A stretch of 34,897 nt of DNA from Patescibacteria group bacterium (GTDB lineage: Bacteria > Patescibacteriota > Minisyncoccia > JACROR01). The DNA lies in NCBI GenBank assembly GCA_038064095.1, contig JBBTTT010000059.1, forward strand, positions 1 through 34,897. The letters run 5' to 3'. The position numbers were made by a program, and so were the translations under genes. The notes under the pieces were generated by a model that did no database searches, had not been told where the DNA came from, and saw nothing but the letters and a program-made list of their open reading frames with translations. Numbering within the stretch: the first letter of the stretch is position 1; the number at the start of each line of letters is the position of its first letter. Below are positions 818 to 12,704 of this stretch, piece after piece.

Positions 818-939
818 ATTAATGCACAATAAAGACTTTTTAGCATCTAATAGACATTTGTCCAATAGAAAAATGTCCGATAAGCACATTTTATTCACAT
901 TATTTCCACTAATTTAGCTTGTTAAAAAGGAGGATGCGA

Positions 940-2049
940 ATGGAAAGAAAAATTGAAGTTCTTGGTTTTTACAATGGCCATCAATTATTAGATGGTGATG
1001 GTAAAAAAGCCGATTTGTTAAAAATAATTGAGCTTGCCGGAAGAACTTGTTATAAATCTTTTGATAAAATAACCGTTGATTCGGCAAAACAGTTTGTCCA
1101 TAAACTCTTGAGAGTTTATAAACATGAAAGCGTGATAGAACATTCTTGGTTTCCTTTATTTATAGACCTTACGGGATTGTTGTCTTGGGAAATTATTTTA
1201 GATATTTTGACTACGAATGGATTGTTTAAAGTTACAAAGAAAGAATCAGGGTGGCTGTTGAGCGGAAACGCAAGAATGTTTCGCGATTACATCCTAAAAA
1301 GTAAAAAAATATGGAAATATGACATCCGGGACAAGCTGAAAAATGAATATCCGGAACTTTTTCAGGATATTGATCATAACAATATGGATGGCGTTGTTGA
1401 GAATGACATTGAAAATGATTTTAAAACGCGCCGTCATATTAAAATATATCCTGATATTTCAGAATTCGCTTCACTTGATGAAAAATTAAAACACTGGTGG
1501 CTGGCGGTCCGCTTCAAAGGAGGATCACGGGCATTCACTCATCAACTAGTCAGGCATCGCCTTTGCGCGATTTCCCAGGAAAGCCAAAGATATTGCGACG
1601 AAGCTGGATTTTTTGACAATCAGTATTATGTAATTCCGGAATCCATCAAAGAATTAAAAAATACCAAATTGATGGATTTAATCGGGGACGGTGGTTTGGA
1701 AAATGATTTAACCTTGGAAGAATGGTATAAAACTAATTTGCTGCTTATGGACAGCTGGTACAGAAATCTGCAGAATTTTCTGAAAATGGCGAAAGAAAAA
1801 GGACTGGCAAAAATGAAAGTGAACGAAGACGCCAGATTTTTACTGCCCAACGCAGTTTGCAGCGAAATTGTTGTTTCCGCGAATCTTGAAGAATGGCGCC
1901 ATATCTTTAAAATGAGATGCGATCTTCACGCCCAGTGGGAAATCCGCGATTTTGCGATGATGGTTTTAAAAAAAGCCAAATCACTTTTCCCCGGCGTTTT
2001 TGACGATTTTTTAGAAAGCAAGGACGAAAAAAGCGCGTTTTCTATCTAA
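940..2049 (+). CDS. thyX: FAD-dependent thymidylate synthase ThyX, long form with an internal insertion
   Basis: It carries the ThyX signature SRAFTHQLVRHRLCAISQESQRY (RHR...S...SQRY) and the C-terminal NLEEWRHIFKMRCDLHAQWEIR motif. An AAGGAGG SD lies at 927-933, 6 nt before the ATG at 940. At 369 aa it is much longer than a typical ThyX of about 220-250 aa. Confidence 0.85.
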   Translation: MERKIEVLGFYNGHQLLDGDGKKADLLKIIELAGRTCYKSFDKITVDSAKQFVHKLLRVYKHESVIEHSWFPLFIDLTGLLSWEIILDILTTNGLFKVTKKESGWLLSGNARMFRDYILKSKKIWKYDIRDKLKNEYPELFQDIDHNNMDGVVENDIENDFKTRRHIKIYPDISEFASLDEKLKHWWLAVRFKGGSRAFTHQLVRHRLCAISQESQRYCDEAGFFDNQYYVIPESIKELKNTKLMDLIGDGGLENDLTLEEWYKTNLLLMDSWYRNLQNFLKMAKEKGLAKMKVNEDARFLLPNAVCSEIVVSANLEEWRHIFKMRCDLHAQWEIRDFAMMVLKKAKSLFPGVFDDFLESKDEKSAFSI

Positions 2050-2055
2050 CAAATT

Positions 2056-2083
2056 AAAAAACCCCGCCTAGGCGCGGGGTTTT
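2056..2083. terminator. Bidirectional intrinsic terminator between convergent thyX and the por operon
   Basis: The aaaaaa-CCCCGC-ctaggc-GCGGGG-tttt hairpin is flanked by an A-run and a T-run, so it reads as stem plus U-tract on both strands. Confidence 0.6.
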
Positions 2084-2092
2084 AAAATTAAA

Positions 2093-4201
2093 TTATTCTT
2101 GGAATAACTTGAAAAGTTTTTCCAGTTTTAACCAGTTTTTATCGGTATTTTTCTGAATACTGACAATGTCTTCTTCCTTAAGATGGCTGAATCGGCCTTG
2201 AATTTTCAAATACTGTTCCACAATCCTTTTCTTTGGCATCTCGCTGGCTTTATAATCCTCTCCGTTAAAAATTTCATAAAGCGGCCAAATTCTGGTTTCA
2301 ACGGCTAATCTCGCCACTTCAATAGTTTTTTCGGTAGAAAATTTCCAGCCCGGAGGACAAGAAGAGAAAACAAGAATGAATTTAAAGCCTTTTATTTCCT
2401 TTGCTTTTCTGATTTTTTCGAGCAAATCTTCGGGATAAGCGATTGAAGCGGTGGCCGCGTAAGGAATCTTGTGAGCAGCCATAATAGCCATAATGTCTTT
2501 TTTGGGCTGAGATTTTAAATCCGGCGTAGTGCTGCTCCACGCCCCAAAAGGAGTGGACGACGACCTCTGAACGCCGGTATTCATATAAGCCTCATTGTCA
2601 TAGCAGACAAAAATTATGTCATCGTTTCTTTCAGCGGCGCCGGACAAAGCCTGTAATCCAATGTCGTAAGTTCCGCCGTCGCCGGCAAAAGCCAGAACAT
2701 TCACGTCTTCTATCTCTAAAGCGTCAAAACCGGCCCGAGCGCCGGAAGCTTCAGCCGCGGCTTCCTCAAAACAAACATTCTGCAAAGGATAAAGAGAAGC
2801 ACAATTCGGAAATCTGCCGTTGACGACCGAACCGCAGCAAGCCGGTCTCAACTCAAATGTTCTTTTGCCCAATCCTTTTAAAATAAATCTGCTCGCTATC
2901 ATCATGCCGCATCCCTGGCAAGAAAATTCTCCGGCGGAAATATATTCTTCGCCGGGAATTTCTTTGAGAATGTTTTCTTTAGACGCGGAAATTTGAACAG
3001 CCGGATGTTTCGCGGGGTCAAAATTATTGCCGCCGCCGTTTGTTTCTTTAAGATCAATCCAGATCGGCTCCGGGTCAAACTCCGCCCGGACGGGGTCTTT
3101 TTTTGTCCTTTCAATAATTTCCAGGACCCGGCGCGGGCTAACATCTCTTCCGCCGAGACCGGCCGGAAAACTTAAAAGTTTAGGTTTTTGTTCGGCGTAA
3201 AACGCGCCCCTGATCTCTCGCCAGACAATCTTTTGCATATCCCGATCAATTACTGCGATAGTCTCAACTCCCCGAAGAGATTCCATTAATTCTTCTTTAG
3301 GAAACGGCTTGAACATTCTTATTCTGATCAAGCCCACTCCATCAAGATTTTCTATCGCGCTCTTGATTGTCCCCGCGACTGAACCTAAAGCGATAATAGC
3401 TATTTTGGCTTTTTCCATCTTATAAGTTTCAATCGCTTCATATTTTCTGCCAAAAATTTCCTGAAATTCAAAATGGGCTTTTTTAGCGGCCTCTTTTGCC
3501 TTTTTTTCAAGATTTTCCGTCAAAATATAACGGAATTCGGTCAAATAATCATCGCCAATGGAAGGCTCGTAAACCAATGGTTTTTCAAAATCAACGGGAT
3601 AAAGCGGTTTATAGCCGGGCAAAAAATTATCAACTGAATCCTGGGATGAAATTTCTATCGCTTCCGAAGCGTGGGAAAGGTAAAATCCGTCAAGATTCAC
3701 CATTACCGGCGAATAAATTTGCTCGGCGATTTTATAACCGATAATTATTGAATCAAAAACTTCTTGGGCGTCAGCCGCGTAAAATTGCAGCCAAGGAATG
3801 TCGCGAAGAGCCAAACTGTCTTCGTGAGAAGCTAAAATATTCCAAGAAGGACCCAATGTCCTGTTGACATTAACCAAAACCAGAGGCAGCCGCCTAAGAC
3901 CGGCTGAATATATTTGTTCAGCCATTAGCCAAAGGCCCTGCGAAGAGGTCGCGGTAAAAGCCCGGGCGCCGACTCTGGAAGCCGCCATTATTAAGGCCGC
4001 GGCCGAGGCTTCAGATTCAGTATGCTTATACACGGCTTTTAAATATCCTTTAGCGACAAAATCAGCTAATTTTTCCGCAACGGTAGTTTGGGGAGTAATG
4101 GGATAAGCCGAAATAACTTGAACTTTTGAACGAACCGCCCCCCAAGCCGCCGCCTCATTGGCATGCATTACTTTTCGGAATTTTTCCAAAATCTTTTCCA
4201 T
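2093..4201 (-). CDS. porA: 2-oxoacid (pyruvate):ferredoxin oxidoreductase, fused alpha (PorA) and beta (PorB, TPP-binding) subunits
   Basis: The N-terminal half MHANEAAAWGAVRSKVQVISAYPITPQT... is PorA-like. The C-terminal half has CQGCG...GDGGTYDIGLQALSGAAERNDDIIFVCYDNEAYMNTGVQRS (TPP-binding GDGG...N motif, PorB-like). The start is the ATG at 4199-4201 with a GGAGG 6 nt upstream, 1 nt after the upstream gene's stop. Confidence 0.9.
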   Translation of the reverse strand: MEKILEKFRKVMHANEAAAWGAVRSKVQVISAYPITPQTTVAEKLADFVAKGYLKAVYKHTESEASAAALIMAASRVGARAFTATSSQGLWLMAEQIYSAGLRRLPLVLVNVNRTLGPSWNILASHEDSLALRDIPWLQFYAADAQEVFDSIIIGYKIAEQIYSPVMVNLDGFYLSHASEAIEISSQDSVDNFLPGYKPLYPVDFEKPLVYEPSIGDDYLTEFRYILTENLEKKAKEAAKKAHFEFQEIFGRKYEAIETYKMEKAKIAIIALGSVAGTIKSAIENLDGVGLIRIRMFKPFPKEELMESLRGVETIAVIDRDMQKIVWREIRGAFYAEQKPKLLSFPAGLGGRDVSPRRVLEIIERTKKDPVRAEFDPEPIWIDLKETNGGGNNFDPAKHPAVQISASKENILKEIPGEEYISAGEFSCQGCGMMIASRFILKGLGKRTFELRPACCGSVVNGRFPNCASLYPLQNVCFEEAAAEASGARAGFDALEIEDVNVLAFAGDGGTYDIGLQALSGAAERNDDIIFVCYDNEAYMNTGVQRSSSTPFGAWSSTTPDLKSQPKKDIMAIMAAHKIPYAATASIAYPEDLLEKIRKAKEIKGFKFILVFSSCPPGWKFSTEKTIEVARLAVETRIWPLYEIFNGEDYKASEMPKKRIVEQYLKIQGRFSHLKEEDIVSIQKNTDKNWLKLEKLFKLFQE

Positions 4202-4202
4202 T

Positions 4203-6368
4203 TTATTCCTCCAATTTTTGGCTGATTGCCGATCTCGGACATTCTTGAGCGCAGATGCCGCAGCCCTTGCAATAGTCATAATTGATTTTCAGTTCTCCTT
4301 GTTTTTCGGAAACCGCCATATGAGGGCAGAATTTCCAGCAGTTTCCGCAAAAATCGCAAACGCCGCAGCTAAAACACCTTTTCGCTTCCGAACGCGACGC
4401 CGGTTCTCTTTTCTGATTTTTATTAAAATAAACCGGATTTAAATCGGAAAATTTAACTATTTGCGGATCTTTTGTTTCAAGAGGCGGTTCTCCCAAAAGA
4501 ATTTTCTCTATCTTCTCCGCGGCTTCTCTTCCTGAACCGATCGCCGCGGGAACCGTTCCCGCTTTTGTCTTTATATCTCCGCCCAAAAAAACTTTCCAAT
4601 CCTCCGATTCAACGAAAAACGAATTTTCCGCTTCTTCGCCGACCGCGACAATCAAATTGTCAAACTGCTCCAGAAAATTAGAACCTTCAATCGGTAAAGG
4701 GTTGTTTCTGCTTGATTCAGCTGATTTTCCGGGCTGATTTCTTTGACATTCAAGAAAATTTTGGCCGGATTTGCTGAAAATTCTGACCGGAGACAATAAT
4801 TCTCTGATTTCAATCCCTTCTTTTTCGGCTAAAATCACGTCTTCTTTGATTGCCGGCATTTCAATCTTGGTTCTTCGGTAAAAAATAGAGACCTCCGAAC
4901 CGAATCTTTTAGCGGTTCTGGCCGCGTCAATCGCCGTATTGCCGCCGCCGATAATCACAACCTTTTCCCCTAAAAAAGTTGAAGAAATTGCTTTATTGCC
5001 AAAATTGATGTTTTTAAGAAAATCCAAACCATAAAGGACATCGGGATTTTCCTCGCCTTCAATATTTAATTTTCTTGATTTTTGAAGGCCGGCCGCGAAA
5101 AAGACGGCGTCGTAATATCGTTTAATAGTTTCAAAAAATTTTTGGTCAACAAAAATGCCTTTGCAAACTTTAACTCCAAGATAGATAATGTTGTTGATTT
5201 CTTTTTCCAGAACATCTTTCGGCAAACGAAATTCCGGGATTCCGAATCGGAGCTGGCCGCCTAAAACAGGAAACTGTTCAAAAACAATAACCCGAAAATT
5301 TTTTCTGGCCAGTTGATAGGCGCAGGAAAGTCCGGCCGGGCCGGAACCTACGACGGCAATGTTAAAAGGTTTAAATTTTTTTTCTAAAACCGGCGGATGC
5401 CAACCGCGAGCCGAAGCCTCATCGCCCAAAAATTTCTCCAAATTCCTGATTGACACGGATTCGTCAAATTCATTTCGGTTGCAACTTTTCTCGCAAAAAG
5501 CCCGGCAAACCCGACCAGTAACGGCCGGGAAAGGATTTTTTTCCATCAATTTTTCCCAAGCCTGCCTGTTTTTTCCTTGTTTTAACAAAGAAAGCCAATA
5601 AGGAATATCATTTCCTAATGGGCAGGCATTTTGGCAGGGGGATGTTTTATTTTGGTAATAAGGCCTTATTTTTCTCCAGGCGCCGGTAAGATTCTTAGCG
5701 GTGCCGCTTAAAGAAATTACCGATCCGGGAAGTTCTTTAAAATCCTGAAAAATAATTCCGGCCGGCGGGATTTCCGTTTCCGTCAATTTGTCGGAAGCGG
5801 GAAATTCAATCATTTTAGCCCGCTCAAAAGATTCTTTCACGGCTTTAATGTTATTTCCTTTTTTTGGCAATTCGTCTGATTCTTCCGTTGCTTCAATAAT
5901 TGACTCAAGATTAAGAAGATTCGTGATTTTAGCAAAAACTCCCAACATAGCGGTCCCGACCGCCGGCAGAGCTTTCTGGCCCAAGCCGTATTTTTGGGTA
6001 ATAAAATCAACATCCGCGATTCCCGCCCGGCAACCCGCCAAACCGATCGGATATTTTAAATCTTGAACCGCGTTAAGAATAATTAATCCGCTCTCTCTTT
6101 TAAATCCTTCCAAAACGCGCGCCTGCTTAAAGCGAATCAGAGAAGCATCAAGAATTATAAGATAATCCGGAGCGTAAATTGCCGACCTTAAGATGATCGG
6201 ATTTTCGTCAACTCTCAAACCAACCAGAATCGGCGCCGATCTTCTTTCCGATTTGAATTCAGGCAAAACCAGGACATATTTCTTTTCTTTCCAAAAAGCA
6301 GAAGCTAAAATTCTGGCGGCGGTCAGCGCTCCCTGGCCGCCTCTTCCGTGAAATCTTATTTCTAACAT
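4203..6368 (-). CDS. Three-module fusion: PorG (gamma), GltD/SudA-like NAD(P)H-dependent FAD/Fe-S oxidoreductase, and PorD-like 2x[4Fe-4S] ferredoxin
   Basis: The N-terminus MLEIRFHGRGGQGALTAARILA is PorG-like. The middle has CQNACPLGNDIPYW...VTGRVCRAFCEKSCNR plus VAVVGSGPAGLSCAYQLARKNFRVIVFEQFPVLGGQLRFGIPEFRLPK (GltD-type Fe-S and dinucleotide folds) and a second GGGNTAIDAAR fold. The C-terminus has CFSCGVCDFCGNCWKFCP...YCKGCGICAQECP. The start is taken at the ATG at 6366-6368, with a GGAGG 10 nt upstream. Confidence 0.85.
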   Translation of the reverse strand: MLEIRFHGRGGQGALTAARILASAFWKEKKYVLVLPEFKSERRSAPILVGLRVDENPIILRSAIYAPDYLIILDASLIRFKQARVLEGFKRESGLIILNAVQDLKYPIGLAGCRAGIADVDFITQKYGLGQKALPAVGTAMLGVFAKITNLLNLESIIEATEESDELPKKGNNIKAVKESFERAKMIEFPASDKLTETEIPPAGIIFQDFKELPGSVISLSGTAKNLTGAWRKIRPYYQNKTSPCQNACPLGNDIPYWLSLLKQGKNRQAWEKLMEKNPFPAVTGRVCRAFCEKSCNRNEFDESVSIRNLEKFLGDEASARGWHPPVLEKKFKPFNIAVVGSGPAGLSCAYQLARKNFRVIVFEQFPVLGGQLRFGIPEFRLPKDVLEKEINNIIYLGVKVCKGIFVDQKFFETIKRYYDAVFFAAGLQKSRKLNIEGEENPDVLYGLDFLKNINFGNKAISSTFLGEKVVIIGGGNTAIDAARTAKRFGSEVSIFYRRTKIEMPAIKEDVILAEKEGIEIRELLSPVRIFSKSGQNFLECQRNQPGKSAESSRNNPLPIEGSNFLEQFDNLIVAVGEEAENSFFVESEDWKVFLGGDIKTKAGTVPAAIGSGREAAEKIEKILLGEPPLETKDPQIVKFSDLNPVYFNKNQKREPASRSEAKRCFSCGVCDFCGNCWKFCPHMAVSEKQGELKINYDYCKGCGICAQECPRSAISQKLEE

Positions 6369-6392
6369 CTCTTTTTTCCTCCATAAATATTG

Positions 6393-6418: not shown

Positions 6419-6447
6419 AAAATACCACCAATCAAAATTTTTAGCAA
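6419..6447 (-). promoter_or_regulatory. Sigma70-type promoter of the por operon
   Basis: The minus strand reads TTGCTA (6447-6442), a 17-nt spacer, then TGgTATTTT (extended -10, hexamer 6424-6419). It lies directly after the upstream terminator. Confidence 0.4.
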
Positions 6448-6502: not shown

Positions 6503-7123
6503 TTATTTAATCGGCGAATTCAATTTTATTTCGGGCGGCGAGAAAATGTCGCCAATAACTTTTCCAAAAGCCCTTTCACTTTCATGCTGTCTAATCAGTT
6601 GGTTGTTAATATTTATTCCGACAAGTATTTTATTTTTAAAAATCAGCACTAATTTTATATCACAGCCTACCCGGTAGGTGTCGCGGCTGTTAAAATAGGT
6701 GAACAGCCTGTCGGTGCGAATTTTTGAGTCCGCGGCTCTGCATTTAATCCCCTCGTATTGTTTCTTTCCCGCTGTCATATTCTCAATATTTTGAAAATCT
6801 ATCGCTAAATGCGTGTTAGCAAGGATAATATCCGAAGTTTCCAGCCAGCCAATTTTATCGCAGCTGTTTTTTGCTTCAGTGCTAAAGCCCAATTTCTTTA
6901 CTTCATCCAAACTCATGCCTTCTTTTAATTGATCAGCGGCTCGCAAAAATTCGTTAATGGCTTTGAAATCTCCCTGCAATACAAATTCAATATTTTCTTT
7001 TTGGGCCACCGGCACTTTTAACCATTCTTTTTCCGTCGGAAAACGGCTGGCGCAGCCGGCAATAATAATCAAGAAAATAATTAAAAGCAAAAGAACAACA
7101 TTCCAAATAATTTTTAACCTCAT
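6503..7123 (-). CDS. Hypothetical lipoprotein
   Basis: It has an N-terminal signal peptide with the lipobox LIIIAGC|AS. No recognisable family. It is co-directional with, and 58 nt downstream of, the thiolase gene. Confidence 0.7.
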   Translation of the reverse strand: MRLKIIWNVVLLLLIIFLIIIAGCASRFPTEKEWLKVPVAQKENIEFVLQGDFKAINEFLRAADQLKEGMSLDEVKKLGFSTEAKNSCDKIGWLETSDIILANTHLAIDFQNIENMTAGKKQYEGIKCRAADSKIRTDRLFTYFNSRDTYRVGCDIKLVLIFKNKILVGININNQLIRQHESERAFGKVIGDIFSPPEIKLNSPIK

Positions 7124-8409: not shown

Positions 8410-8437
8410 TTGTTTTCCCCTGATTATTGTTTAAAAT
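8410..8437 (+). promoter_or_regulatory. Candidate promoter of the tryptophanase-like gene, implying a leaderless mRNA
   Basis: TTGTTT, a 16-nt spacer, then TAAAAT. The -10 ends 7 nt before the ATG at 8445 and there is no SD. Confidence 0.35.
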
Positions 8438-8444
8438 AATAGCA

Positions 8445-9815
8445 ATGATGTTTTTTCCTCCTCCGTGGAAAATAAAAATGGTTGAGCCAACCCGCTTGAT
8501 CTCGCGGCCGGCCCGCGAAAAAGCCGTTAAAGCCGCGGGCTTTAACACTTTTTTGCTCAAATCACGCGATGTTTTTATTGATCTTTTGACCGATTCCGGA
8601 ACCTCGGCGATGTCAGACCAACAGTGGGCGGGTTTGATGATCGGAGACGAAGCTTACGCCGGATCGGAAAATTTTTATAATTTGAAAAAAGCCGTCAAAG
8701 ACATTTACGGCTTTCCTTATTTCGTGCCAACCCATCAGGGAAGAGGCGCGGAGCATCTGGCCGCGAAAGCGCTTGTCAAAGAAAGCCAATATGTTCTTTC
8801 CAATATGTATTTCACGACTTCGCGGGAGCATGTTGAGCGCCAAGGCGGCGTTTGGCGCGACTGCATTGTCAAAGAAGCTTATCATCCAAAAAATAAATAT
8901 CCTTTCAAAGGCAATTTTAATATCGCCAAAACAGCGACTTTTATCAAAAAATTCGGATCAAAACAAATTGCTTTTATCAGAGTTGAACCCGGCTGCAATA
9001 TGGCCGGAGGCCAGCCGGTTTCAATGAAAAATTTAAAAGCTCTGCGTTTTCTTGCCCGAAAACATAAAATTCTTCTGATGATGGATGCCACCCGGGCGCT
9101 TGAAAACGCTTATTTTATAAAAATCCGCGAATCGGGCTGGAGCGATCAGCCGGTAAAAATGATTCTGAAAACTATGACGAGTCTGGTTGACGGCGTTACC
9201 GTCAGTTCCAAAAAAGATAATTTGGTCAATATCGGCGGATTTTTGGCAACGCGCGACAAAAAATTATTTGAAGAAGCGCGGGCTTTGGTGGTGGTTTACG
9301 AAGGATTGCACACTTACGGCGGGATGGCCGGCCGCGATATGGAGGCGCTGGCCCGCGGCATCCGCGAGATGACGGATGACGAATATATCCGGCACAGGAT
9401 TGAGCAGGTAAGATGGTTCGGGGATTTGCTTAAAAATGCCGGCGTGCCGATTATTTTGCCGATCGGCGGACACGCGGTCTATCTTGACGCCAAAAGATTT
9501 TTACCCCACATTCCTTCGGCGCAATATCCGGCGCAGGCTTTGGCCGCGGCGATTTATGAAGAAAACGGGGTTCGTTCAATGGAGCGCGGCTCGGTTTCGG
9601 CAGGCCGCAATCCTAAAACCGGAAAAGAACACGGCTCAAGACTGGAGCTGGTGAGACTGACCGTGCCGCGCCGCGTCTATACCAATGATCATCTCGGTTT
9701 CGCGGTTGACGGCATTATCCGGCTTTTCAAAAAACGAAAAACCATCCGCGGCCTGAAAATGATTTATGAGCCGAAACAACTTCGTTTCTTCCAAGCCCGT
9801 TTCAGAAGAATATAA
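8445..9815 (+). CDS. tnaA: PLP-dependent beta-eliminating lyase (tryptophanase / tyrosine phenol-lyase family)
   Basis: DVFIDLLTDSGTSAMSDQQWAGLMIGDEAYAGSENFYNLKKAVKDIYGFPYFVPTHQGRGAEHL closely tracks the E. coli TnaA N-terminal region. The PLP-lysine motif is SSKKDNLVNIGG. TnaA and TPL cannot be told apart by eye. Confidence 0.85.
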   Translation: MMFFPPPWKIKMVEPTRLISRPAREKAVKAAGFNTFLLKSRDVFIDLLTDSGTSAMSDQQWAGLMIGDEAYAGSENFYNLKKAVKDIYGFPYFVPTHQGRGAEHLAAKALVKESQYVLSNMYFTTSREHVERQGGVWRDCIVKEAYHPKNKYPFKGNFNIAKTATFIKKFGSKQIAFIRVEPGCNMAGGQPVSMKNLKALRFLARKHKILLMMDATRALENAYFIKIRESGWSDQPVKMILKTMTSLVDGVTVSSKKDNLVNIGGFLATRDKKLFEEARALVVVYEGLHTYGGMAGRDMEALARGIREMTDDEYIRHRIEQVRWFGDLLKNAGVPIILPIGGHAVYLDAKRFLPHIPSAQYPAQALAAAIYEENGVRSMERGSVSAGRNPKTGKEHGSRLELVRLTVPRRVYTNDHLGFAVDGIIRLFKKRKTIRGLKMIYEPKQLRFFQARFRRI

Positions 9816-9915: not shown

Positions 9916-10926
9916 TTATTTTATTCTTCTTTGCAAAAATTCCAGAGTCTTGATTGCCGATTCGTCATCATCAGCCATCATTCCGAGAATTTCAAAAGTT
10001 GTTTTATCAAAGGATTCTTTTATCAATCTTGCCATCGGCAGCAAGCGGCCGGTAAAATGGGCTTTGGCAAAAACATCAAGTAAAACTTCGTCGGGAGAAG
10101 CAAATTTGTCCTTATTATTTTCATAAATTTTTGAAACAAGCAAATTTAAAACTTTTCTTTGCCAAAAATAGCTAAAATTCGCGTAAAATTCATCGTTAAA
10201 AGAAATAATTTCGTCAATTGGAATATCCGCCTTTTGAGAAATTTCTTCCTTTAATTCTTTCGCCTCTCCGCTTTCCGACTGTTTCTTTTTTTCTTTTAAA
10301 ATCGGATGTTCAATTAATTTTTTAAAATATCTTTTTTCCATCTCCGTTGTAACCGCTTCTTCCAATCCTCTGAAATGTTCATGTCCTTTATTTTCTTTAT
10401 CTTTTTTATTTGCCGAAAAAACAGCCAAACCGGCTCTGAAAGGGCTGACCGTTTCCATATCTTTTTCTCCCGTCTTTTCAACTTCCAAAGCGAAATGTCC
10501 TTTTAAATGGAACATTTCATGGAATATTATTGAGCCAAAATAGACCGGATCTGATTTAAAAACTTTCGCGTTAAGAAGAATAGCTCTTTCTTGATAGTGG
10601 GTTATCGCGCTGTAATTGCCGGCTATTTTATTGGATTTTTTGTATAATTCCGGAGGCAAAATGTGAATATTTTTCAAGGGAATGTCAAAAGACGGAACTC
10701 CCAATTTTTCCATTAAATCGTTCAATTCATTGTCAGCCGCGAAAATTAATTCTTTTTCTTGGGGAGTTTTTTCGTATTCCAAAGATTCCAGCTCTTTTCT
10801 CGCTTCTTCCGAAATATCCACTAAATGATCTTCGTAAAAATAACGGCGGAATCTTTCTTTAACCGACTCTTTTGTTTTTTCCGGCGCGGCGCCGACAATT
10901 TTTGGTTTTGGCTCAAATTTTTCCAT
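9916..10926 (-). CDS. Hypothetical HExxH (gluzincin-like) metalloprotease-domain protein
   Basis: It carries IIFHEMFHLKG (HExxH) and, about 50 aa downstream, GLEEAVTTEME as a possible third ligand. The start is taken at the ATG at 10924-10926. The tracked ORF's 48 extra N-terminal codons are two tRNA genes read in frame. Confidence 0.65.
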   Translation of the reverse strand: MEKFEPKPKIVGAAPEKTKESVKERFRRYFYEDHLVDISEEARKELESLEYEKTPQEKELIFAADNELNDLMEKLGVPSFDIPLKNIHILPPELYKKSNKIAGNYSAITHYQERAILLNAKVFKSDPVYFGSIIFHEMFHLKGHFALEVEKTGEKDMETVSPFRAGLAVFSANKKDKENKGHEHFRGLEEAVTTEMEKRYFKKLIEHPILKEKKKQSESGEAKELKEEISQKADIPIDEIISFNDEFYANFSYFWQRKVLNLLVSKIYENNKDKFASPDEVLLDVFAKAHFTGRLLPMARLIKESFDKTTFEILGMMADDDESAIKTLEFLQRRIK

Positions 10927-10934
10927 AGAATAAA

Positions 10935-11008
10935 TGGTGGACCTAGGGAGAATCGAACTCCCGTCTCCACAATGCGAATGTGGCGTCGTACCACTAGACC
11001 ATAGGCCC
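10935..11008 (-). tRNA. tRNA-Ala(CGC), CCA encoded
   Basis: The cloverleaf folded by hand has acceptor GGGCCTA/TAGGTCC with G3:U70, anticodon arm CCACA-TTCGCAT-TGTGG and T arm GGGAG-TTCGATT-CTCCC. The 3' end is ACCA. Confidence 0.8.
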
Positions 11009-11013
11009 AACTG

Positions 11014-11084
11014 TCGGAGCGCCGAGAATCGAACTCGGGTCTCACCCTCCCGAAGGGTGTATACTACCACTATACTACGCTCCG
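11014..11084 (-). tRNA. tRNA-Pro(CGG), no encoded CCA
   Basis: Acceptor CGGAGCG/CGCTCCG, anticodon arm CACCC-TTCGGGA-GGGTG (G37), T arm CCGAG-TTCGATT-CTCGG and discriminator A, followed by CAG rather than CCA. Confidence 0.75.
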
Positions 11085-11114: not shown

Positions 11115-12572
11115 TCATTTTACATAATACTTTTCTCTTATTTCTCCCACTTCTTCTTCTTCAATCGTCATGCTTTTTTTCTTGGCTTCTTTGCCTAATT
11201 TTTCCAGCTCTTTATTAGGCAAAATCGCCAATTCCTTGGCTTTTTTCTCCAAATATTCCGCGGTATTAAATTTTGGATCATTTAAAACATCTTCCAACAA
11301 GATATTCAAAATATGGCCTATTTTGGGGCCGGGTTCAAGGCCGGTTATTTCCATCAGCCGATTGCCGTTTACTTTAAGCATTTTAACGGAAATGGGATCG
11401 CGAAGCGCTTGTTCAACCATTGCCTGATATTTTCTAAGGCGAAACGGCCGTTCTTTGGGCCGGCCCATCCCCACCCGGTCGCAAAAACGCACTTTCATCA
11501 AGTCCCAAATATTTTCCGGGCCGACATTTCTCACCAAGCGGCGCACCGCGGAAAGGGTAATCACATCGGTATCTGAAAAAAATAAATGATAGCGGACGAG
11601 CTTAGAAACCGTTTCCGTGAATTTTTTGGAAAATTTAAGGCGGGAGAGGATTTCTTTCGTCATTCTGCCTCCGATCACGTCATGGCTGTAAAAAGTGGAG
11701 TCCGGGCCTTCGCCGCGTTTGGCGCGCGGTTTCCCCACATCATGCAAAAGCGCGGCCATTCTGACTTCCAAACTGTAATTATTCTTCACCGCGTGCTCCA
11801 ACGAACGCAAATTATGCTCCCAAACCTTAAAAACATGATCTTTATTTTGCGTTACGCCCCAGCCCTCTTCAAGTTCCGGCAAAACATGCTTAAGAATGCC
11901 GGTTTCCCGCATTATTTCCAGCCCTTTTTGCGGCTGATCGGACATTATTATTTTAACAAGTTCGTCCTTAACGCGCTCTTTGGCAATAATTTCCAATAAC
12001 GGAGATTTTTCTTTGATTGCCTGAATGGTTTTTTCTTCAATTTTAAAATCAAGCTCCGCGGCCAAACGCGCGGCCCGCATAATCCGCAAAGCGTCTTCTT
12101 CAAAACGCTTCGTTGGCTCACCCACGGCCCGAATAACGGCTTTTTTTAAATCTTCCTGCCCTCTAAAAAGATCAATCAGCTCGCCGGACTCCCAATCCAA
12201 AGCCATCGCGTTTACGGTAAAATCGCGGCGGCTCAAGTCGTCTTCCAATTTTTTGGTGAATTTTACTTCATCGGGATGACGTTTGTCGGAATATTTTGAC
12301 TCCAGACGAAAAGGCGTAATTTCCACGACTTTTAACGTTTCATCTTCGGAATCGGTTATCGCGCTGACCGTGCCGAACTGGTTCTCATAAAAACTTTTTT
12401 CGTAAAGTTTTTCAATTTCTTCCGGCCGGGCATTGGTGGTAATATCCCAGTCTTTCGGTTTTTTGCCCGACAAAAGATCGCGCACGCACCCGCCCACCAA
12501 ATAGGCCTCATACCCCGCGTTTTTTAGAGCGCCATAAACCCTTTTTATCTCTTTGGGAATTTTATGTTTCAT
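11115..12572 (-). CDS. cca: CCA-adding tRNA nucleotidyltransferase with HD domain
   Basis: It has the polymerase-beta head motif YLVGGCVRDLLSGKKPKDWDITT, then RRDFTVNAMA and the HD motif LLHDVGKP. The start is the ATG at 12570-12572 (MKHKIPKEI). The upstream codons of the tracked ORF are tRNA-Arg read in frame. Confidence 0.85.
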   Translation of the reverse strand: MKHKIPKEIKRVYGALKNAGYEAYLVGGCVRDLLSGKKPKDWDITTNARPEEIEKLYEKSFYENQFGTVSAITDSEDETLKVVEITPFRLESKYSDKRHPDEVKFTKKLEDDLSRRDFTVNAMALDWESGELIDLFRGQEDLKKAVIRAVGEPTKRFEEDALRIMRAARLAAELDFKIEEKTIQAIKEKSPLLEIIAKERVKDELVKIIMSDQPQKGLEIMRETGILKHVLPELEEGWGVTQNKDHVFKVWEHNLRSLEHAVKNNYSLEVRMAALLHDVGKPRAKRGEGPDSTFYSHDVIGGRMTKEILSRLKFSKKFTETVSKLVRYHLFFSDTDVITLSAVRRLVRNVGPENIWDLMKVRFCDRVGMGRPKERPFRLRKYQAMVEQALRDPISVKMLKVNGNRLMEITGLEPGPKIGHILNILLEDVLNDPKFNTAEYLEKKAKELAILPNKELEKLGKEAKKKSMTIEEEEVGEIREKYYVK

Positions 12573-12574
12573 TA

Positions 12575-12646
12575 CGCTCTCGGAGGGATTCGAACCCCCA
12601 ACAACTGGTCCGAAGCCAGTCGTGATATCCATTTCACCACGAGAGC
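12575..12646 (-). tRNA. tRNA-Arg(TCG), no encoded CCA
   Basis: Acceptor GCTCTCG/CGAGAGC, D arm GTGA/TCAC, anticodon arm ACTGG-CTTCGGA-CCAGT and T arm GGGGG-TTCGAAT-CCCTC. The discriminator G is followed by TA and then the cca ATG. Confidence 0.75.
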
Positions 12647-12675
12647 AAGTTATTTTTAATTTTAGTGTATTTTCT

Positions 12676-12704
12676 TTGAAAAACAAGTCTAAAAATAGTA
12701 TATT
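12676..12704 (+). promoter_or_regulatory. Near-consensus promoter for tRNA-Arg(CCG)
   Basis: TTGAAA, a 17-nt spacer, then TATATT. The -10 hexamer ends at 12704, 30 nt upstream of the tRNA 5' end. Confidence 0.45.

What the first reader, a model, noticed from the sequence alone, without database searches (positions are those of the whole stretch)
2093..6368. 2-oxoacid oxidoreductase with a GltD-type NAD(P)H module wired between PorG and PorD
The usual four Por subunits are collapsed into two genes. One is a PorA-PorB fusion. The other inserts a complete glutamate-synthase-small-subunit/SudA-like flavoprotein between the gamma domain and the delta ferredoxin domain. That insert has two Cys clusters, a GSGPAG FAD fold and a GGGNTAID NAD(P) fold. 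This architecture suggests electrons from pyruvate or another 2-oxoacid pass within one complex to NAD(P)+ rather than to free ferredoxin. That would be a solution analogous to, but unrelated to, eukaryotic pyruvate:NADP+ oxidoreductase, and useful in a genome with few redox carriers.
Basis: partly seen in the sequence, partly recalled or inferred. Interest (0 to 1): 0.6.

Follow-up and report, generated by a model that had tools for sequence, protein, structure and literature searches.

The report
Two-gene NADP-linked 2-oxoacid oxidoreductase
A tiny bacterial genome packs a pyruvate-type 2-oxoacid oxidoreductase into two genes with a built-in NADPH/FAD iron-sulfur module, so it probably passes electrons straight to NADP+ without free ferredoxin; a related enzyme was characterised in 2003, but this layout, widespread in uncultured bacteria, has never been tested.

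Summary
On the minus strand, 4203-6368 encodes PorG + GltD/NfnB-like flavoprotein + PorD (721 aa), and 2093-4201 encodes PorA-PorB (702 aa). The two genes are translationally coupled between their own promoter region and a terminator.

Two refinements:
- The flavoprotein sits inside PorD, after its N-terminal TGxWR arm, rather than between gamma and delta.
- It is the circularly permuted "insertable" GltD type also seen in StnC and Bfu-type NfnA. Its EAxRCxxC half-motif lies after the flavin domain.

Fifteen invariant Cys plus one Glu fit four [4Fe-4S] clusters. The FAD, NADPH (GGGNTAID...YRR) and TPP motifs are intact.

Most likely function: a non-bifurcating 2-oxoacid (probably pyruvate):NADP+ oxidoreductase. 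Supporting genome context:
- This is the only OFOR in the 526-kb genome.
- There is no NfnA.
- There is no FeFe hydrogenase.
- There is one small ferredoxin.

It is not unique. The delta-GltD gene occupies the delta slot of por operons in Planctomycetota, Acidobacteriota, Chloroflexota, Patescibacteria and others, and gamma fusion arose repeatedly. A homologous flavoprotein accompanies the NADP+-specific 2-oxoglutarate oxidoreductase type of Azoarcus/Aromatoleum. I rate it a new variant of a known kind, biochemically untested.

The parts
6419..6427 (-). Putative extended -10 element (TGgTATTTT) of the por operon promoter
   Evidence: Read directly from the sequence. It lies downstream of the terminator of the preceding gene. 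Not tested. The consensus scan did not list it.
6378..6382 (-). Shine-Dalgarno GGAGG of gene 1
   Evidence: Sequence read. It ends 9 nt before the ATG at 6368.
4203..6368 (-). Gene 1: PorG, PorD N-arm, permuted GltD/NfnB-like flavoprotein and PorD ferredoxin core (721 aa plus stop)
   Evidence: (P0003 is 100% identical and 721 aa). AlphaFold2 model: mean pLDDT 85.4.
5787..6368 (-). Gamma (PorG/PorC, domain III) part with the GRGGQG CoA-site motif
   Evidence: Pfam POR 7.7e-22. TIGR02175 PorC_KorC 143 bits, above its cut-off of 81. PDB 9bt4_E PorC E 3e-27.
5682..5792 (-). Flexible gamma-delta linker (about 37 residues)
   Evidence: AlphaFold2 pLDDT below 50 for residues 193-229 of the 721-aa protein. 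Unconserved and variable in length in alignment A1.
5628..5726 (-). N-terminal arm of the delta subunit (…NLTGAWRKIRP…), upstream of the insert
   Evidence: This peptide matches positions 5-39 of 85 in PorD_Arch (E 4.7e-4) and VorD PRK09623. The same holds for two relatives. A [TS]GxW motif lies upstream of C-x3-CP in 118 of 120 homologues, 17 residues upstream in most of them.
5403..5648 (-). Fe-S subdomain of the GltD-like module: C245-x3-C249-P, GRVC288-x3-C292-x3-C296, and Glu311 in LEKF (721-aa numbering)
   Evidence: Pfam Fer4_20 3e-19, covering profile positions 28-112 only. These Cys and Glu are invariant in 47 sequences. The aligned positions in StnC and NfnA ligate the proximal cluster, which there is 3 Cys plus Lys, and plus Glu in NfnB.
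4452..5363 (-). FAD and NAD(P)H dinucleotide-binding domains: GSGPAG, GIPEFRLP, GGGNTAIDAARTA, YRR, GGD
   Evidence: Pfam Pyr_redox_2 3.9e-23. Residue-by-residue alignments to NfnA, StnC and NfnB. Foldseek TM 0.75-0.76 to NfnL, NfnB and GltD, normalised by the target.
4359..4388 (-). Permuted half-motif E-A-K-R-C665-F-S-C668-G-V, inferred to complete the distal GltD-type cluster
   Evidence: E, R, C, C and G are invariant in 47 sequences. Among GltD-like modules in the fetched loci, an upstream CxxC and a downstream ExxRCxxC are almost mutually exclusive: 21 canonical, 37 permuted, 1 with both; Fisher p = 1.4e-9. The ligand role is an inference.
4206..4358 (-). Delta ferredoxin core with two CxxCxxCxxxCP motifs (C671..C681 and C700..C710)
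   Evidence: Fer4/Fer4_9. PorD_Arch positions 30-84, E 1.3e-19. TIGR02179 61.1 bits, above its cut-off of 60.05. PDB 9bt4_G PorD.
2093..4201 (-). Gene 2: PorA-PorB fusion (702 aa plus stop), translationally coupled to gene 1
   Evidence: (P0123 is 100% identical and 702 aa).
3044..4201 (-). Alpha part (domains I and II) with the YPITP motif
   Evidence: POR_N 3e-61 and PFOR_II 3e-19. PorA_Arch 364 bits and VOR alpha 316 bits, both below their equivalog cut-offs. YPITP is at residues 59-63 of the ORF.
2966..3043 (-). Alpha-beta joining segment (…ETNGGGNNFDPAKHP…)
   Evidence: It lies between the PorA and PorB profile matches. In the same-genus relative the two genes are separate, with 2 nt between them.
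2096..2965 (-). Beta part: TPP site (GDGG…NEAYMN) and Cys for the proximal [4Fe-4S] (CQGC, CC, SSCPPGW)
   Evidence: TPP_enzyme_C 2e-20. PRK11864 377 bits and PorB 355 bits, against a cut-off of 405. Motifs located. The Cys-ligand assignment follows known PFOR structures and is an inference.
2058..2083 (-). Intrinsic terminator-like hairpin plus T-run closing the two-gene operon
   Evidence: 10-bp stem with 6 GC pairs, starting 10 nt after the stop codon.

Best explanation
The two genes encode one 2-oxoacid oxidoreductase of the POR/VOR clade whose delta subunit carries a built-in NADPH:FAD iron-sulfur module.

Proposed working:
- The 2-oxoacid, most likely pyruvate, is decarboxylated on TPP at the alpha/beta site, with CoA bound by the gamma domain.
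- The two electrons leave one at a time through the beta [4Fe-4S] and the two delta [4Fe-4S] clusters.
- They then cross the two GltD-type [4Fe-4S] clusters. The distal one is built from C245, C296, C665 and C668. The proximal one is built from C249, C288, C292 and Glu311.
- They collect on FAD, which reduces NADP+ by hydride transfer.
- Net reaction: 2-oxoacid + CoA + NADP+ -> acyl-CoA + CO2 + NADPH. No free ferredoxin is needed and there is no electron bifurcation.

Shown here:
- The domain order, the conservation of all cofactor motifs, the homology and the fold.
- The position of the gene in the delta slot of por operons in many phyla.
- The absence of NfnA, of a FeFe hydrogenase and of any other OFOR in this genome.

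Inferred:
- The direction of electron flow.
- The ligand assignment of the split cluster.
- NADP+ rather than NAD+ as acceptor.
- Pyruvate as substrate.
For: Architecture
- Domain architecture and motifs.
- The delta subunit is split by the insert. Its N-arm matches PorD/VorD profile positions 5-39 and its C-part matches positions 30-84.
- 15 invariant Cys plus 1 invariant Glu give 16 ligands, enough for four [4Fe-4S] clusters.
- C668 and C671 are 2 residues apart yet belong to adjacent motifs, which ties the GltD chain to the delta chain (sequence).

Homology and fold
- Best sequence and fold matches are Csac and Tsi NfnA and StnC, at E 1e-64 to 1e-87 and Foldseek E about 1e-42.
- In those proteins this module takes NADPH and feeds an Fe-S chain without bifurcating (PMC10482914, PMC11829005, PMC12018979).
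- The YRR motif after GGGNTAID is shared with those NADPH-binding relatives.
- Stand-alone Fer4_20 + Pyr_redox_2 proteins are Fd:NADP+ reductases (PMC12221290).

Precedent and operon context
- The homologous flavoprotein P0243 is 27% identical over residues 236-719 with the same motif order. It heads a three-gene OFOR operon in Aromatoleum aromaticum EbN1.
- That matches the three-subunit NADP+-specific KGOR of Azoarcus evansii. KGOR-alpha is listed as a GltD-family member in PMC10134865. The enzyme's properties are from my memory of pmid 14526024.
- The gene occupies the delta slot between porG and porA/B in at least 12 lineages.

This genome
- One OFOR.
- No NfnA/PyrK Fe-S domain.
- No FeFe hydrogenase.
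- Only two ORFs carry CxxCxxCxxxC, this protein and a 73-aa ferredoxin.
- A tyrosine phenol-lyase/tryptophanase, which produces pyruvate, lies 2 kb away.
- Thermodynamics (established knowledge): about -500 mV for acetyl-CoA + CO2/pyruvate against -320 mV for NADP+, so the reaction runs downhill.
Against: - There is no biochemical datum for any member with this layout.
- Scores to POR and VOR equivalogs are all below their cut-offs and similar to each other. The same-genus relative has a Leu/Phe/Trp-type amino-acid dehydrogenase next to porB. The substrate could therefore be a branched-chain or aromatic 2-oxoacid.
- The genome does encode one small ferredoxin, so ferredoxin reduction may persist alongside.
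- NADP+ versus NAD+ rests on homology only.
- I could not check the ligands of the distal cluster in coordinates.
- The Fe content I recall for KGOR (about 24 Fe per dimer) would be lower than five clusters per protomer.
Confidence: 0.7

Rival explanations
1. The same enzyme, but its physiological substrate is not pyruvate. It would act as a branched-chain (VOR-like) or aromatic 2-oxoacid:NADP+ oxidoreductase in amino-acid fermentation.
For: - The beta part scores slightly higher to the VOR-beta subfamily PRK11864 (377 bits) than to PorB (355 bits). All equivalog cut-offs are missed.
- The syntenic relative carries a 360-aa ELFV dehydrogenase next to porB. Its closest profile is tryptophan dehydrogenase, E 5e-51.
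- An earlier scan note on a homologue proposed branched-chain substrates.
Against: - The alpha part scores best to archaeal PorA (364 against 316 bits).
- In this window the neighbouring lyase is a tyrosine phenol-lyase/tryptophanase that releases pyruvate, and the ELFV gene is absent from the locus.
- The relative's alpha, beta and gamma parts are only 31-48% identical to those here, so its context need not transfer.
Confidence: 0.3
2. The enzyme is a flavin-based electron-bifurcating or confurcating enzyme. In this reading the NfnB-like FAD couples the low-potential electrons of the 2-oxoacid with a second donor or acceptor (ferredoxin, NADH), as in NfnAB.
For: - The module is homologous to the bifurcating NfnB/NfnL, with TM 0.75-0.76.
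- The Arg of the GIPEFRLP motif is conserved.
- The proximal cluster has the NfnB-type Glu rather than the StnC-type Lys.
Against: - No NfnA/PyrK-type partner exists anywhere in the 94%-complete genome, and there is none in the operon.
- The module belongs to the permuted class, whose solved members (StnC, Bfu-type NfnA) are non-bifurcating.
- NfnB-like proteins without NfnA behave as simple FNORs.
- Oxidation of the 2-oxoacid by NADP+ needs no coupling.
Confidence: 0.07
3. The reverse direction: an NADPH-driven pyruvate (2-oxoacid) synthase that fixes CO2 onto acyl-CoA.
For: OFORs are reversible (review PMC13768988). In GltS, DPD and StnC, GltD-type modules normally pass electrons from NADPH into Fe-S chains.
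Against: - The reaction is uphill by about 180 mV without bifurcation (established potentials).
- The genome is a 526-kb heterotroph with amino-acid lyase and thiolase neighbours.
- There is no partner for energy coupling.
Confidence: 0.04
4. The flavoprotein is not on the catalytic path. Instead it would act as an NADPH-dependent repair, activation or oxygen-protection device, keeping the OFOR clusters reduced or scavenging O2, while ferredoxin remains the acceptor.
For: - One ferredoxin gene exists.
- The family occurs in aerobes and facultative lineages such as Planctomycetota, Acidobacteriota and Methylovirgula.
- Other PFORs have dedicated O2-protection domains.
Against: - The insert replaces the normal start of delta and is stitched residue-to-residue to delta's first cluster motif.
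- In Kor-type enzymes the homologue supplies the only ferredoxin domain.
- KGOR reduces NADP+ catalytically (from my memory of pmid 14526024).
Confidence: 0.05

Closest known systems
2-oxoglutarate:NADP+ oxidoreductase (KGOR) of Azoarcus evansii (Ebenau-Jehle, Boll & Fuchs 2003, pmid 14526024) and the homologous three-gene operon on Aromatoleum aromaticum EbN1 plasmid 2
   Same: - An OFOR that uses a GltD-family FAD/Fe-S protein ending in a 2x[4Fe-4S] ferredoxin domain to reduce NADP+.
- The EbN1 flavoprotein aligns with residues 236-719 here at 27% identity (E 2e-53).
- The motif order is the same: C-x3-CP, GRVC..C..C, FAD site, NADPH site, EAxRCxxC, two dicluster motifs.
   Different: - The catalytic core is the two-subunit Kor type (622-aa alpha and 351-aa beta), not Por/Vor.
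- The flavoprotein is a separate subunit, lacks the delta N-arm and is not fused to gamma.
- It has LKR (Lys type) where this protein has LEK (Glu type).
- The substrate is 2-oxoglutarate.
- I could not read the paper here. Its data are from my memory plus the citation in PMC10134865.
StnC / NfnA of Bfu-type NfnABC transhydrogenases (PDB 8OH5_C, 9BOV_A, 9N5U_A)
   Same: - These are the best sequence and fold matches.
- They have the same permuted GltD-like module spliced into an Fe-S host protein.
- The FAD is non-bifurcating, and NADPH feeds a chain of [4Fe-4S] clusters.
   Different: - The host is a NuoG/Fdh-like subunit of a bifurcating complex.
- The proximal cluster has a Lys ligand.
- No TPP chemistry is involved.
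NfnB/NfnL of NfnAB (4YLF_B, 5JCA_L), GltD (2VDC_G, 6S6S), and Cac_0764-type Fd:NADP+ reductases
   Same: - Same fold, with TM 0.75-0.76.
- A Glu ligand on the proximal cluster.
- NADPH/FAD motifs including YRR.
- The stand-alone forms catalyse Fd -> NADP+.
   Different: - The canonical forms carry the full EAxRCxxC…PCxxxCP motif at the N-terminus and nothing after the flavin domain.
- NfnB needs NfnA, which is absent here.
Canonical four-subunit POR/VOR (PorABCD; e.g. Methanosarcina acetivorans PFOR, PDB 9BT4)
   Same: The alpha, beta, gamma and delta domains and their motifs are all present: YPITP, GDG…N, GRGGQG, and two CxxCxxCxxxCP.
   Different: - There are two genes instead of four.
- Delta is interrupted by a roughly 430-residue flavoprotein.
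- The predicted acceptor is NADP+ rather than ferredoxin.
Pyruvate:NADP+ oxidoreductase (PNO) of Euglena gracilis and Cryptosporidium parvum
   Same: The net reaction and the logic are the same: a PFOR fused to an NADP+-reducing flavoprotein (established knowledge).
   Different: PNO uses a cytochrome-P450-reductase-type FMN/FAD domain on a single-chain PFOR. No such domain is detected here. The two are independent inventions.
Phenylglyoxylate:NAD+ oxidoreductase PadEFGHI (Azoarcus/Thauera)
   Same: A Por-type OFOR with an extra FAD subunit that reduces a pyridine nucleotide. The PadE, PadG and PadI profiles match the gamma, alpha and beta parts here at E 1e-30 to 1e-68.
   Different: The FAD subunit PadH is a different flavoprotein class. 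Its profile NF045765 does not hit this locus. The acceptor is NAD+ and there are five separate subunits.

Membership tests
2-oxoacid:ferredoxin oxidoreductase superfamily, POR/VOR clade | Alpha: POR_N plus PFOR_II domains with the YPITP motif | tested here: met
   (3e-61 and 3e-19). (YPITP at ORF residues 59-63).
2-oxoacid:ferredoxin oxidoreductase superfamily, POR/VOR clade | Beta: TPP-binding domain with the GDG…N motif, plus Cys for the proximal [4Fe-4S] | tested here: met
   (TPP_enzyme_C 2e-20). (GDGG-x-NEAYMN; Cys 454, 457, 481/482, 641). The ligand assignment is inferred.
2-oxoacid:ferredoxin oxidoreductase superfamily, POR/VOR clade | Gamma (domain III) and delta (2x[4Fe-4S]) modules of the pyruvate/2-ketoisovalerate family | tested here: met
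   TIGR02175 143.4 bits (cut-off 81.1) and TIGR02179 61.1 bits (cut-off 60.05).
Pyruvate synthase PorA/PorB or VOR equivalogs (substrate-level assignment) | Score above the curated equivalog cut-off | tested here: not met
   PorA_Arch 364 against 550, PorB 355 against 405, VOR alpha 316 against 646, PRK11864 377.5 against 405. The substrate is therefore not assignable by profile.
GltD/NfnB-like NAD(P)H:FAD Fe-S flavoprotein | Fer4_20 Fe-S subdomain plus an adrenodoxin-reductase-like FAD/NAD(P)H domain with GxGxxG and GxGxxA | tested here: met
   Fold TM 0.75-0.76 to NfnL, NfnB and GltD.
GltD/NfnB-like NAD(P)H:FAD Fe-S flavoprotein | Canonical N-terminal motif EAxRCxxC-x4-C-x3-CP | tested here: not met
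   Only C-x3-CP is found on the N side, and Pfam covers profile positions 28-112 only. EAKRCFSC lies after the flavin domain. This is the permuted class.
NCBIfam NF009410 (PRK12771, 'NAD(P)-binding protein') | Whole-protein score of at least 516 bits | tested here: not met
   This protein scores 459 bits. The por-linked relative P0104 (585 bits) and the nifJ-linked P0244 (753 bits) pass. The EbN1 protein does not (389 bits).
NfnAB electron-bifurcating transhydrogenase | An NfnA (PyrK-like, [2Fe-2S]/FAD) partner encoded upstream | tested here: not met
   No DHODB_Fe-S_bind domain in the whole genome. The operon holds only two genes.
Azoarcus-type 2-oxoglutarate:NADP+ oxidoreductase (KGOR) | A homologous GltD-like flavoprotein with a C-terminal dicluster, in an OFOR operon | tested here: met
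   (E 2e-53, same motif order).
Azoarcus-type 2-oxoglutarate:NADP+ oxidoreductase (KGOR) | Kor-type two-subunit catalytic core, and specificity for 2-oxoglutarate | tested here: not met
   The core here is Por/Vor type. Kor profiles score far lower, for example PRK09627 at 85 bits and TIGR03710 at 127 bits.
Azoarcus-type 2-oxoglutarate:NADP+ oxidoreductase (KGOR) | 2-oxoacid- and CoA-dependent NADP+ reduction | not testable with these tools
   This needs an enzyme assay.
Eukaryotic pyruvate:NADP+ oxidoreductase (PNO) | A C-terminal NADPH-cytochrome-P450-reductase-type FMN/FAD domain | tested here: not met
   No flavodoxin or FAD_binding_1 hit in either protein.
Phenylglyoxylate:NAD+ oxidoreductase | A PadH-type FAD subunit | tested here: not met
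   NF045765 finds only an NDH-2-like ORF on contig C51 and not this locus.

The most novel reading that the evidence does not exclude
The delta-embedded, circularly permuted GltD module may be a portable 'NADPH plug' that lineages keep while swapping the catalytic core around it. Here gamma, alpha and beta are only 31-48% identical to those of the same-genus relative, while the plug and the flanking genes are 58-87% identical.

This cell lacks a type II FAS condensing enzyme, acetate kinase, ACD and LDH. It does have thiolases and a full FadB/FadE/FadD set. In such a cell the enzyme could be the main NADPH and acetyl-CoA source driving reverse beta-oxidation. That would make acyl chains from amino-acid-derived pyruvate, giving a FAS-independent lipid supply in a Patescibacteria-like symbiont.
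Probability: 0.08. Interest if true: 0.8.

Novelty: new variant of a known kind. Interest (0 to 1): 0.45.

Why it matters
If the enzyme reduces NADP+ directly, genome-based metabolic models are mislabelling this step. Models of many uncultured bacteria (Planctomycetota, Acidobacteriota, Chloroflexota, Desulfobacterota-like lineages, Patescibacteria) currently book it as 'pyruvate:ferredoxin oxidoreductase' or 'glutamate synthase small subunit'. That gives them the wrong electron carrier, and therefore wrong predictions for hydrogen production, energy conservation and NADPH supply.

The two-gene version is also the most compact natural design of a ferredoxin-free pyruvate -> acetyl-CoA + NADPH converter, which makes it attractive for pathway engineering.

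The permuted GltD module, shared with StnC and Bfu-type NfnA, shows how one NADPH port was made insertable into unrelated Fe-S enzymes.

Tried and rejected
1. I scanned the C-terminal junction peptide against Pfam to see whether it matches Fer4_20 positions 1-27. Only ferredoxin families hit. The permutation argument therefore rests on motif statistics and homologues, not on a profile match.
2. Searching with the single protein in genome contigs found nothing useful. The alignment-based scan worked.
3. Chlorobium ferrooxidans looked like a cultured member. It turned out to be a different Fer2_4-GltD protein outside any por operon.
4. The five-subunit Hydrogenobacter/Nitrospira POR epsilon subunit and the Methanococcus PorE polyferredoxin were considered as relatives and dropped. 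The 2026 review describes them as unrelated small or polyferredoxin proteins.
5. PadF was assumed to be the FAD subunit of phenylglyoxylate dehydrogenase. It is the roughly 100-aa subunit. PadH is the flavoprotein and does not match.
6. The KGOR paper (PMC225024) is not held, and other citing papers gave no details.
7. Full-text searches for this domain combination found no description of it.
8. The Thr-for-Cys change in 'VTGRVC' was considered as a lost ligand and rejected. The same position is Ile or Leu in StnC and NfnA, and it is not among the ligands reported for their proximal cluster.
9. The predicted structure gives no coordinates, so inter-cluster distances could not be measured.

Full report
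WHAT IS THERE

The window is contig C59 of a 526-kb, 77-contig genome that is 93.8% complete with 0.09% contamination. It is bacterial, and its nearest named relative proteins come from 'Candidatus Niyogibacteria' (Patescibacteria).

Two minus-strand genes fill 2093-6368.
- Gene 1 starts at ATG 6368, with GGAGG at 6382-6378, and ends at TAA 4205-4203.
- Gene 2 starts at ATG 4201, one base after that stop. A GGAGGA lies inside the end of gene 1.
- A hairpin plus T-run at 6477-6453 ends the upstream gene, and another at 2083-2058 closes the pair.
- The two genes are therefore a self-contained, translationally coupled operon.
- Databases hold the two products at exactly these lengths, 721 and 702 aa, on 8 and 7 contigs.

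DOMAINS

Gene 2 is PorA (POR_N, PFOR_II, YPITP) fused to PorB (TPP domain, GDGG…NEAYMN, Cys for the proximal cluster).

Gene 1 runs in this order:
- PorG (POR domain, GRGGQG; TIGR02175 above its cut-off).
- A Fer4_20 Fe-S subdomain.
- A Pyr_redox_2 FAD/NAD(P)H domain, with GSGPAG, GIPEFRLP, GGGNTAIDAARTA, YRR and GGD.
- A PorD-type dicluster (TIGR02179 above its cut-off).

TWO REFINEMENTS

First, the flavoprotein is inserted into delta, not placed between gamma and delta.
- The peptide just before the insert (…NLTGAWRKIRPYYQNK…) matches the N-terminal arm of the PorD/VorD profiles (positions 5-39 of 85).
- The C-terminal part matches positions 30-84.
- Stand-alone relatives of 520-600 aa begin with the same arm.
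- 118 of 120 homologues have [TS]GxW upstream of the C-x3-CP motif, 17 residues upstream in most of them.
- AlphaFold2 (mean pLDDT 85.4) models residues 230-720 as one confident unit. PorG is tethered by a 37-residue segment with pLDDT below 50.

Second, the module is a circularly permuted GltD type.
- Canonical NfnB/GltD proteins carry EAxRCxxC-x4-C-x3-CP at their N-terminus. Here only C-x3-CP is upstream, and E-A-K-R-C-F-S-C-G follows the flavin domain. It runs straight into delta's first CxxCxxCxxxCP.
- I sorted 68 distinct GltD-like modules from the fetched loci. 21 had the upstream CxxC only, 37 had the downstream ExxRCxxC only, 1 had both and 9 had neither (Fisher p = 1.4e-9).
- Of the 120 por-type homologues, none of the 113 in which the motif could be scored was canonical. 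111 had the downstream half-motif, 2 had neither, and 7 could not be scored.
- The same downstream RCxxCG is visible in the solved StnC and Bfu-type NfnA chains.
- In 47 fused homologues that are 36-82% identical, exactly 15 Cys and one Glu (in LEKF) are invariant. That gives sixteen ligands, the number needed for four [4Fe-4S] clusters.
- By alignment with Csac NfnA, whose proximal cluster is ligated by Cys108, Cys147, Cys151 and Lys170, the proximal cluster here uses C249, C288, C292 and Glu311. Glu is the NfnB/GltS-type ligand.
- I infer that the distal cluster uses C245, C296, C665 and C668. This ligand assignment is an inference.

HOW IT MOST LIKELY WORKS

The best sequence and fold matches of the insert are Csac and Tsi NfnA and Sporomusa StnC.
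- phmmer E-values run from 1e-64 to 1e-87, and Foldseek E is about 1e-42 over roughly 600 aligned columns.
- Canonical NfnL/NfnB, Xfn, GltD and DPD follow, with TM 0.75-0.76.

In StnC and NfnA this module binds NADPH, and its FAD does not bifurcate. Electrons move one by one through its two clusters into the host's Fe-S chain (PMC10482914, PMC11829005, PMC12018979). Stand-alone Fer4_20 + Pyr_redox_2 proteins are plain ferredoxin:NADP+ reductases (PMC12221290).

Run in the thermodynamically favourable direction, the fusion should carry electrons along this path: TPP, beta cluster, two delta clusters, two GltD clusters, FAD, NADP+.

The YRR motif after GGGNTAID is shared with all the NADPH-binding relatives. 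NADP+ is therefore favoured over NAD+, by homology only.

GENOME CONTEXT

- This is the only OFOR in the genome.
- There is no NfnA/PyrK Fe-S domain and no FeFe hydrogenase.
- Only two ORFs in the genome carry a CxxCxxCxxxC motif. One is this protein and the other is a 73-aa ferredoxin on contig C20.
- By inference, that leaves no room for Rnf, NuoI-type or Hdr-type ferredoxin consumers.
- A cell with nothing to do with low-potential ferredoxin gains from sending the electrons to NADP+.
- The neighbours are a conserved unknown 206-aa ORF, a thiolase and, divergently, a tyrosine phenol-lyase/tryptophanase (TIGR02618 678 bits; PRK13238 620 bits). The lyase releases pyruvate.
- Pyruvate is therefore my preferred substrate. 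However, POR and VOR profiles score alike and all fall below their cut-offs.
- The same-genus relative has a Leu/Phe/Trp-type dehydrogenase beside porB. A branched-chain or aromatic 2-oxoacid remains a serious alternative.

DISTRIBUTION AND EVOLUTION

The delta-GltD gene sits in the delta slot of por operons in many lineages:
- Phycisphaerae
- Terriglobales
- Acidiferrales
- Sulfotelmatobacter
- Thermoanaerobaculia
- Fraserbacteria
- 'delta proteobacteria'
- Solirubrobacterales
- Nitrospinaceae
- Chloroflexota
- this Patescibacteria clade

All the members I found with this por-operon layout are from MAGs or metagenome assemblies.

Every gene arrangement occurs:
- four genes;
- gamma | GltD-delta | alpha-beta;
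- gamma-GltD-delta | alpha | beta;
- the two-gene form.

On a tree of 120 modules the gamma fusion changes state at least 9 times, 7 of them forced by well-supported branches. Alpha-beta fusions of about 700 aa are also common, including in Lloydbacteria, Bathyarchaeia and Thermococcus.

Within the window's phylum the enzyme is rare. It was found in 2 of 301 sampled genomes and in 2 of 4 in the order.

Comparison with the syntenic same-genus relative shows a mosaic:
- Flanking genes are 63-87% identical.
- The GltD module is 68% identical and the delta core 58%.
- PorG is only 31% identical, PorA 37% and PorB 48%.

The catalytic core was therefore exchanged around a retained adaptor.

WHAT IS KNOWN

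A 2026 review of PFOR diversity lists one-, two-, four- and five-subunit forms and no flavoprotein-containing form. Full-text searches found no description of this layout.

An earlier scan note pointed to the NADP+-specific 2-oxoglutarate oxidoreductase of Azoarcus evansii.
- PMC10134865 lists its alpha subunit as a GltD-family member.
- I could not read the original paper.
- I recall three subunits of 63, 62 and 37 kDa, FAD, TPP and Fe-S, and NADP+ specificity.

Aromatoleum aromaticum EbN1 plasmid 2 carries the matching operon: a 595-aa 'FAD-dependent oxidoreductase', a 622-aa OFOR alpha and a 351-aa beta.
- Its flavoprotein has the same permuted motif order plus a C-terminal dicluster.
- It aligns with residues 236-719 here (27% identity, E 2e-53).

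PRK12771-family proteins also sit directly upstream of single-chain nifJ in Methylovirgula and Phenylobacterium plasmids.

The phenylglyoxylate:NAD+ enzyme uses an unrelated flavoprotein, PadH, which does not match. The eukaryotic PNO uses a P450-reductase domain that is absent here.

VERDICT

- The feature is real and intact.
My confidence is about 0.7 for direct pyridine-nucleotide reduction, lower for NADP+ specifically and for pyruvate.
- It is a new variant of a known kind. The principle was shown in 2003 for a Kor-type enzyme, and the sequence family is in the databases under vague names.
- The Por-type, delta-embedded and here two-gene form has not been characterised.
- Interest is moderate.

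Noticed in passing
Own genome contig C51:9000-28500 (locus L094): A 526-kb genome carries a complete beta-oxidation-type gene set: a 424-aa thiolase, a 637-aa FadB-like hydratase/dehydrogenase, a 621-aa acyl-CoA synthetase and a 738-aa FadE-type acyl-CoA dehydrogenase. Nearby are an NDH-2-like flavoprotein, a DAO-type and a GlcD-like FAD oxidase, and a PlsC-like acyltransferase. The genome lacks Ketoacyl-synt_C (FabF/B), acetate kinase, CoA_binding_2 (ACD) and Ldh_1_N. The fate of acetyl-CoA and of reducing equivalents is unexplained.
   Followed up: partly
window 2093-6368 compared with L003:5432-9603: Mosaic orthology with the syntenic same-genus relative. The flanking genes (CCA enzyme 87%, UPF0102 81%, thiolase 72%, ThyX 70%, orf206 63%) and the GltD module (68%) are similar. 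PorG (31%), PorA (37%) and PorB (48%) are not. This looks like an in-place replacement of the catalytic core around a retained delta-GltD adaptor.
   Followed up: partly
L091 (Methylovirgula sp. HY1 plasmid) and L092 (Phenylobacterium zucineum plasmid): In cultured Alphaproteobacteria, a PRK12771 protein (GltD-like plus dicluster, 753 bits) lies immediately upstream of single-chain nifJ (PFOR) and of a 'dihydroorotate dehydrogenase-like' gene. This may be a third way of coupling a PFOR to NADPH.
   Followed up: no
window 6503-7123 (-): A 206-aa ORF between the thiolase and the por operon has no Pfam or NCBIfam match. It is conserved (63% identity) at the same position in the same-genus relative, and a 201-aa gene that runs into the contig end lies directly upstream of the por genes in a third genome.
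   Followed up: no
window 8427-9815 (+): A tyrosine phenol-lyase/tryptophanase-family gene (TIGR02618 678 bits, just under its cut-off of 720.7) is divergently placed next to the thiolase-por cluster. It would supply pyruvate from Tyr or Trp.
   Followed up: partly
window 919-2049 (+): The ThyX ORF is 376 aa, but the Thy1 profile matches only residues 191-358 (profile positions 55-190). This suggests an N-terminal extension or an insertion. The relative's ThyX is 363 aa and 70% identical.
   Followed up: no
window 9916-11070 and 11115-12686 (-): The mechanical ORFs overlap tRNA genes: tRNA-Ala 10935-11008 and tRNA-Pro 11013-11084, and tRNA-Arg 12574-12647. The true genes must therefore start further in. 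The 384-aa ORF has no family match.
   Followed up: no
Own genome contig C20:116-352 (-): This is the only small ferredoxin-like gene in the genome (73 aa, CIGCGSCEAICP…CCP, single-cluster type). It sits on a 2.6-kb contig.
   Followed up: partly
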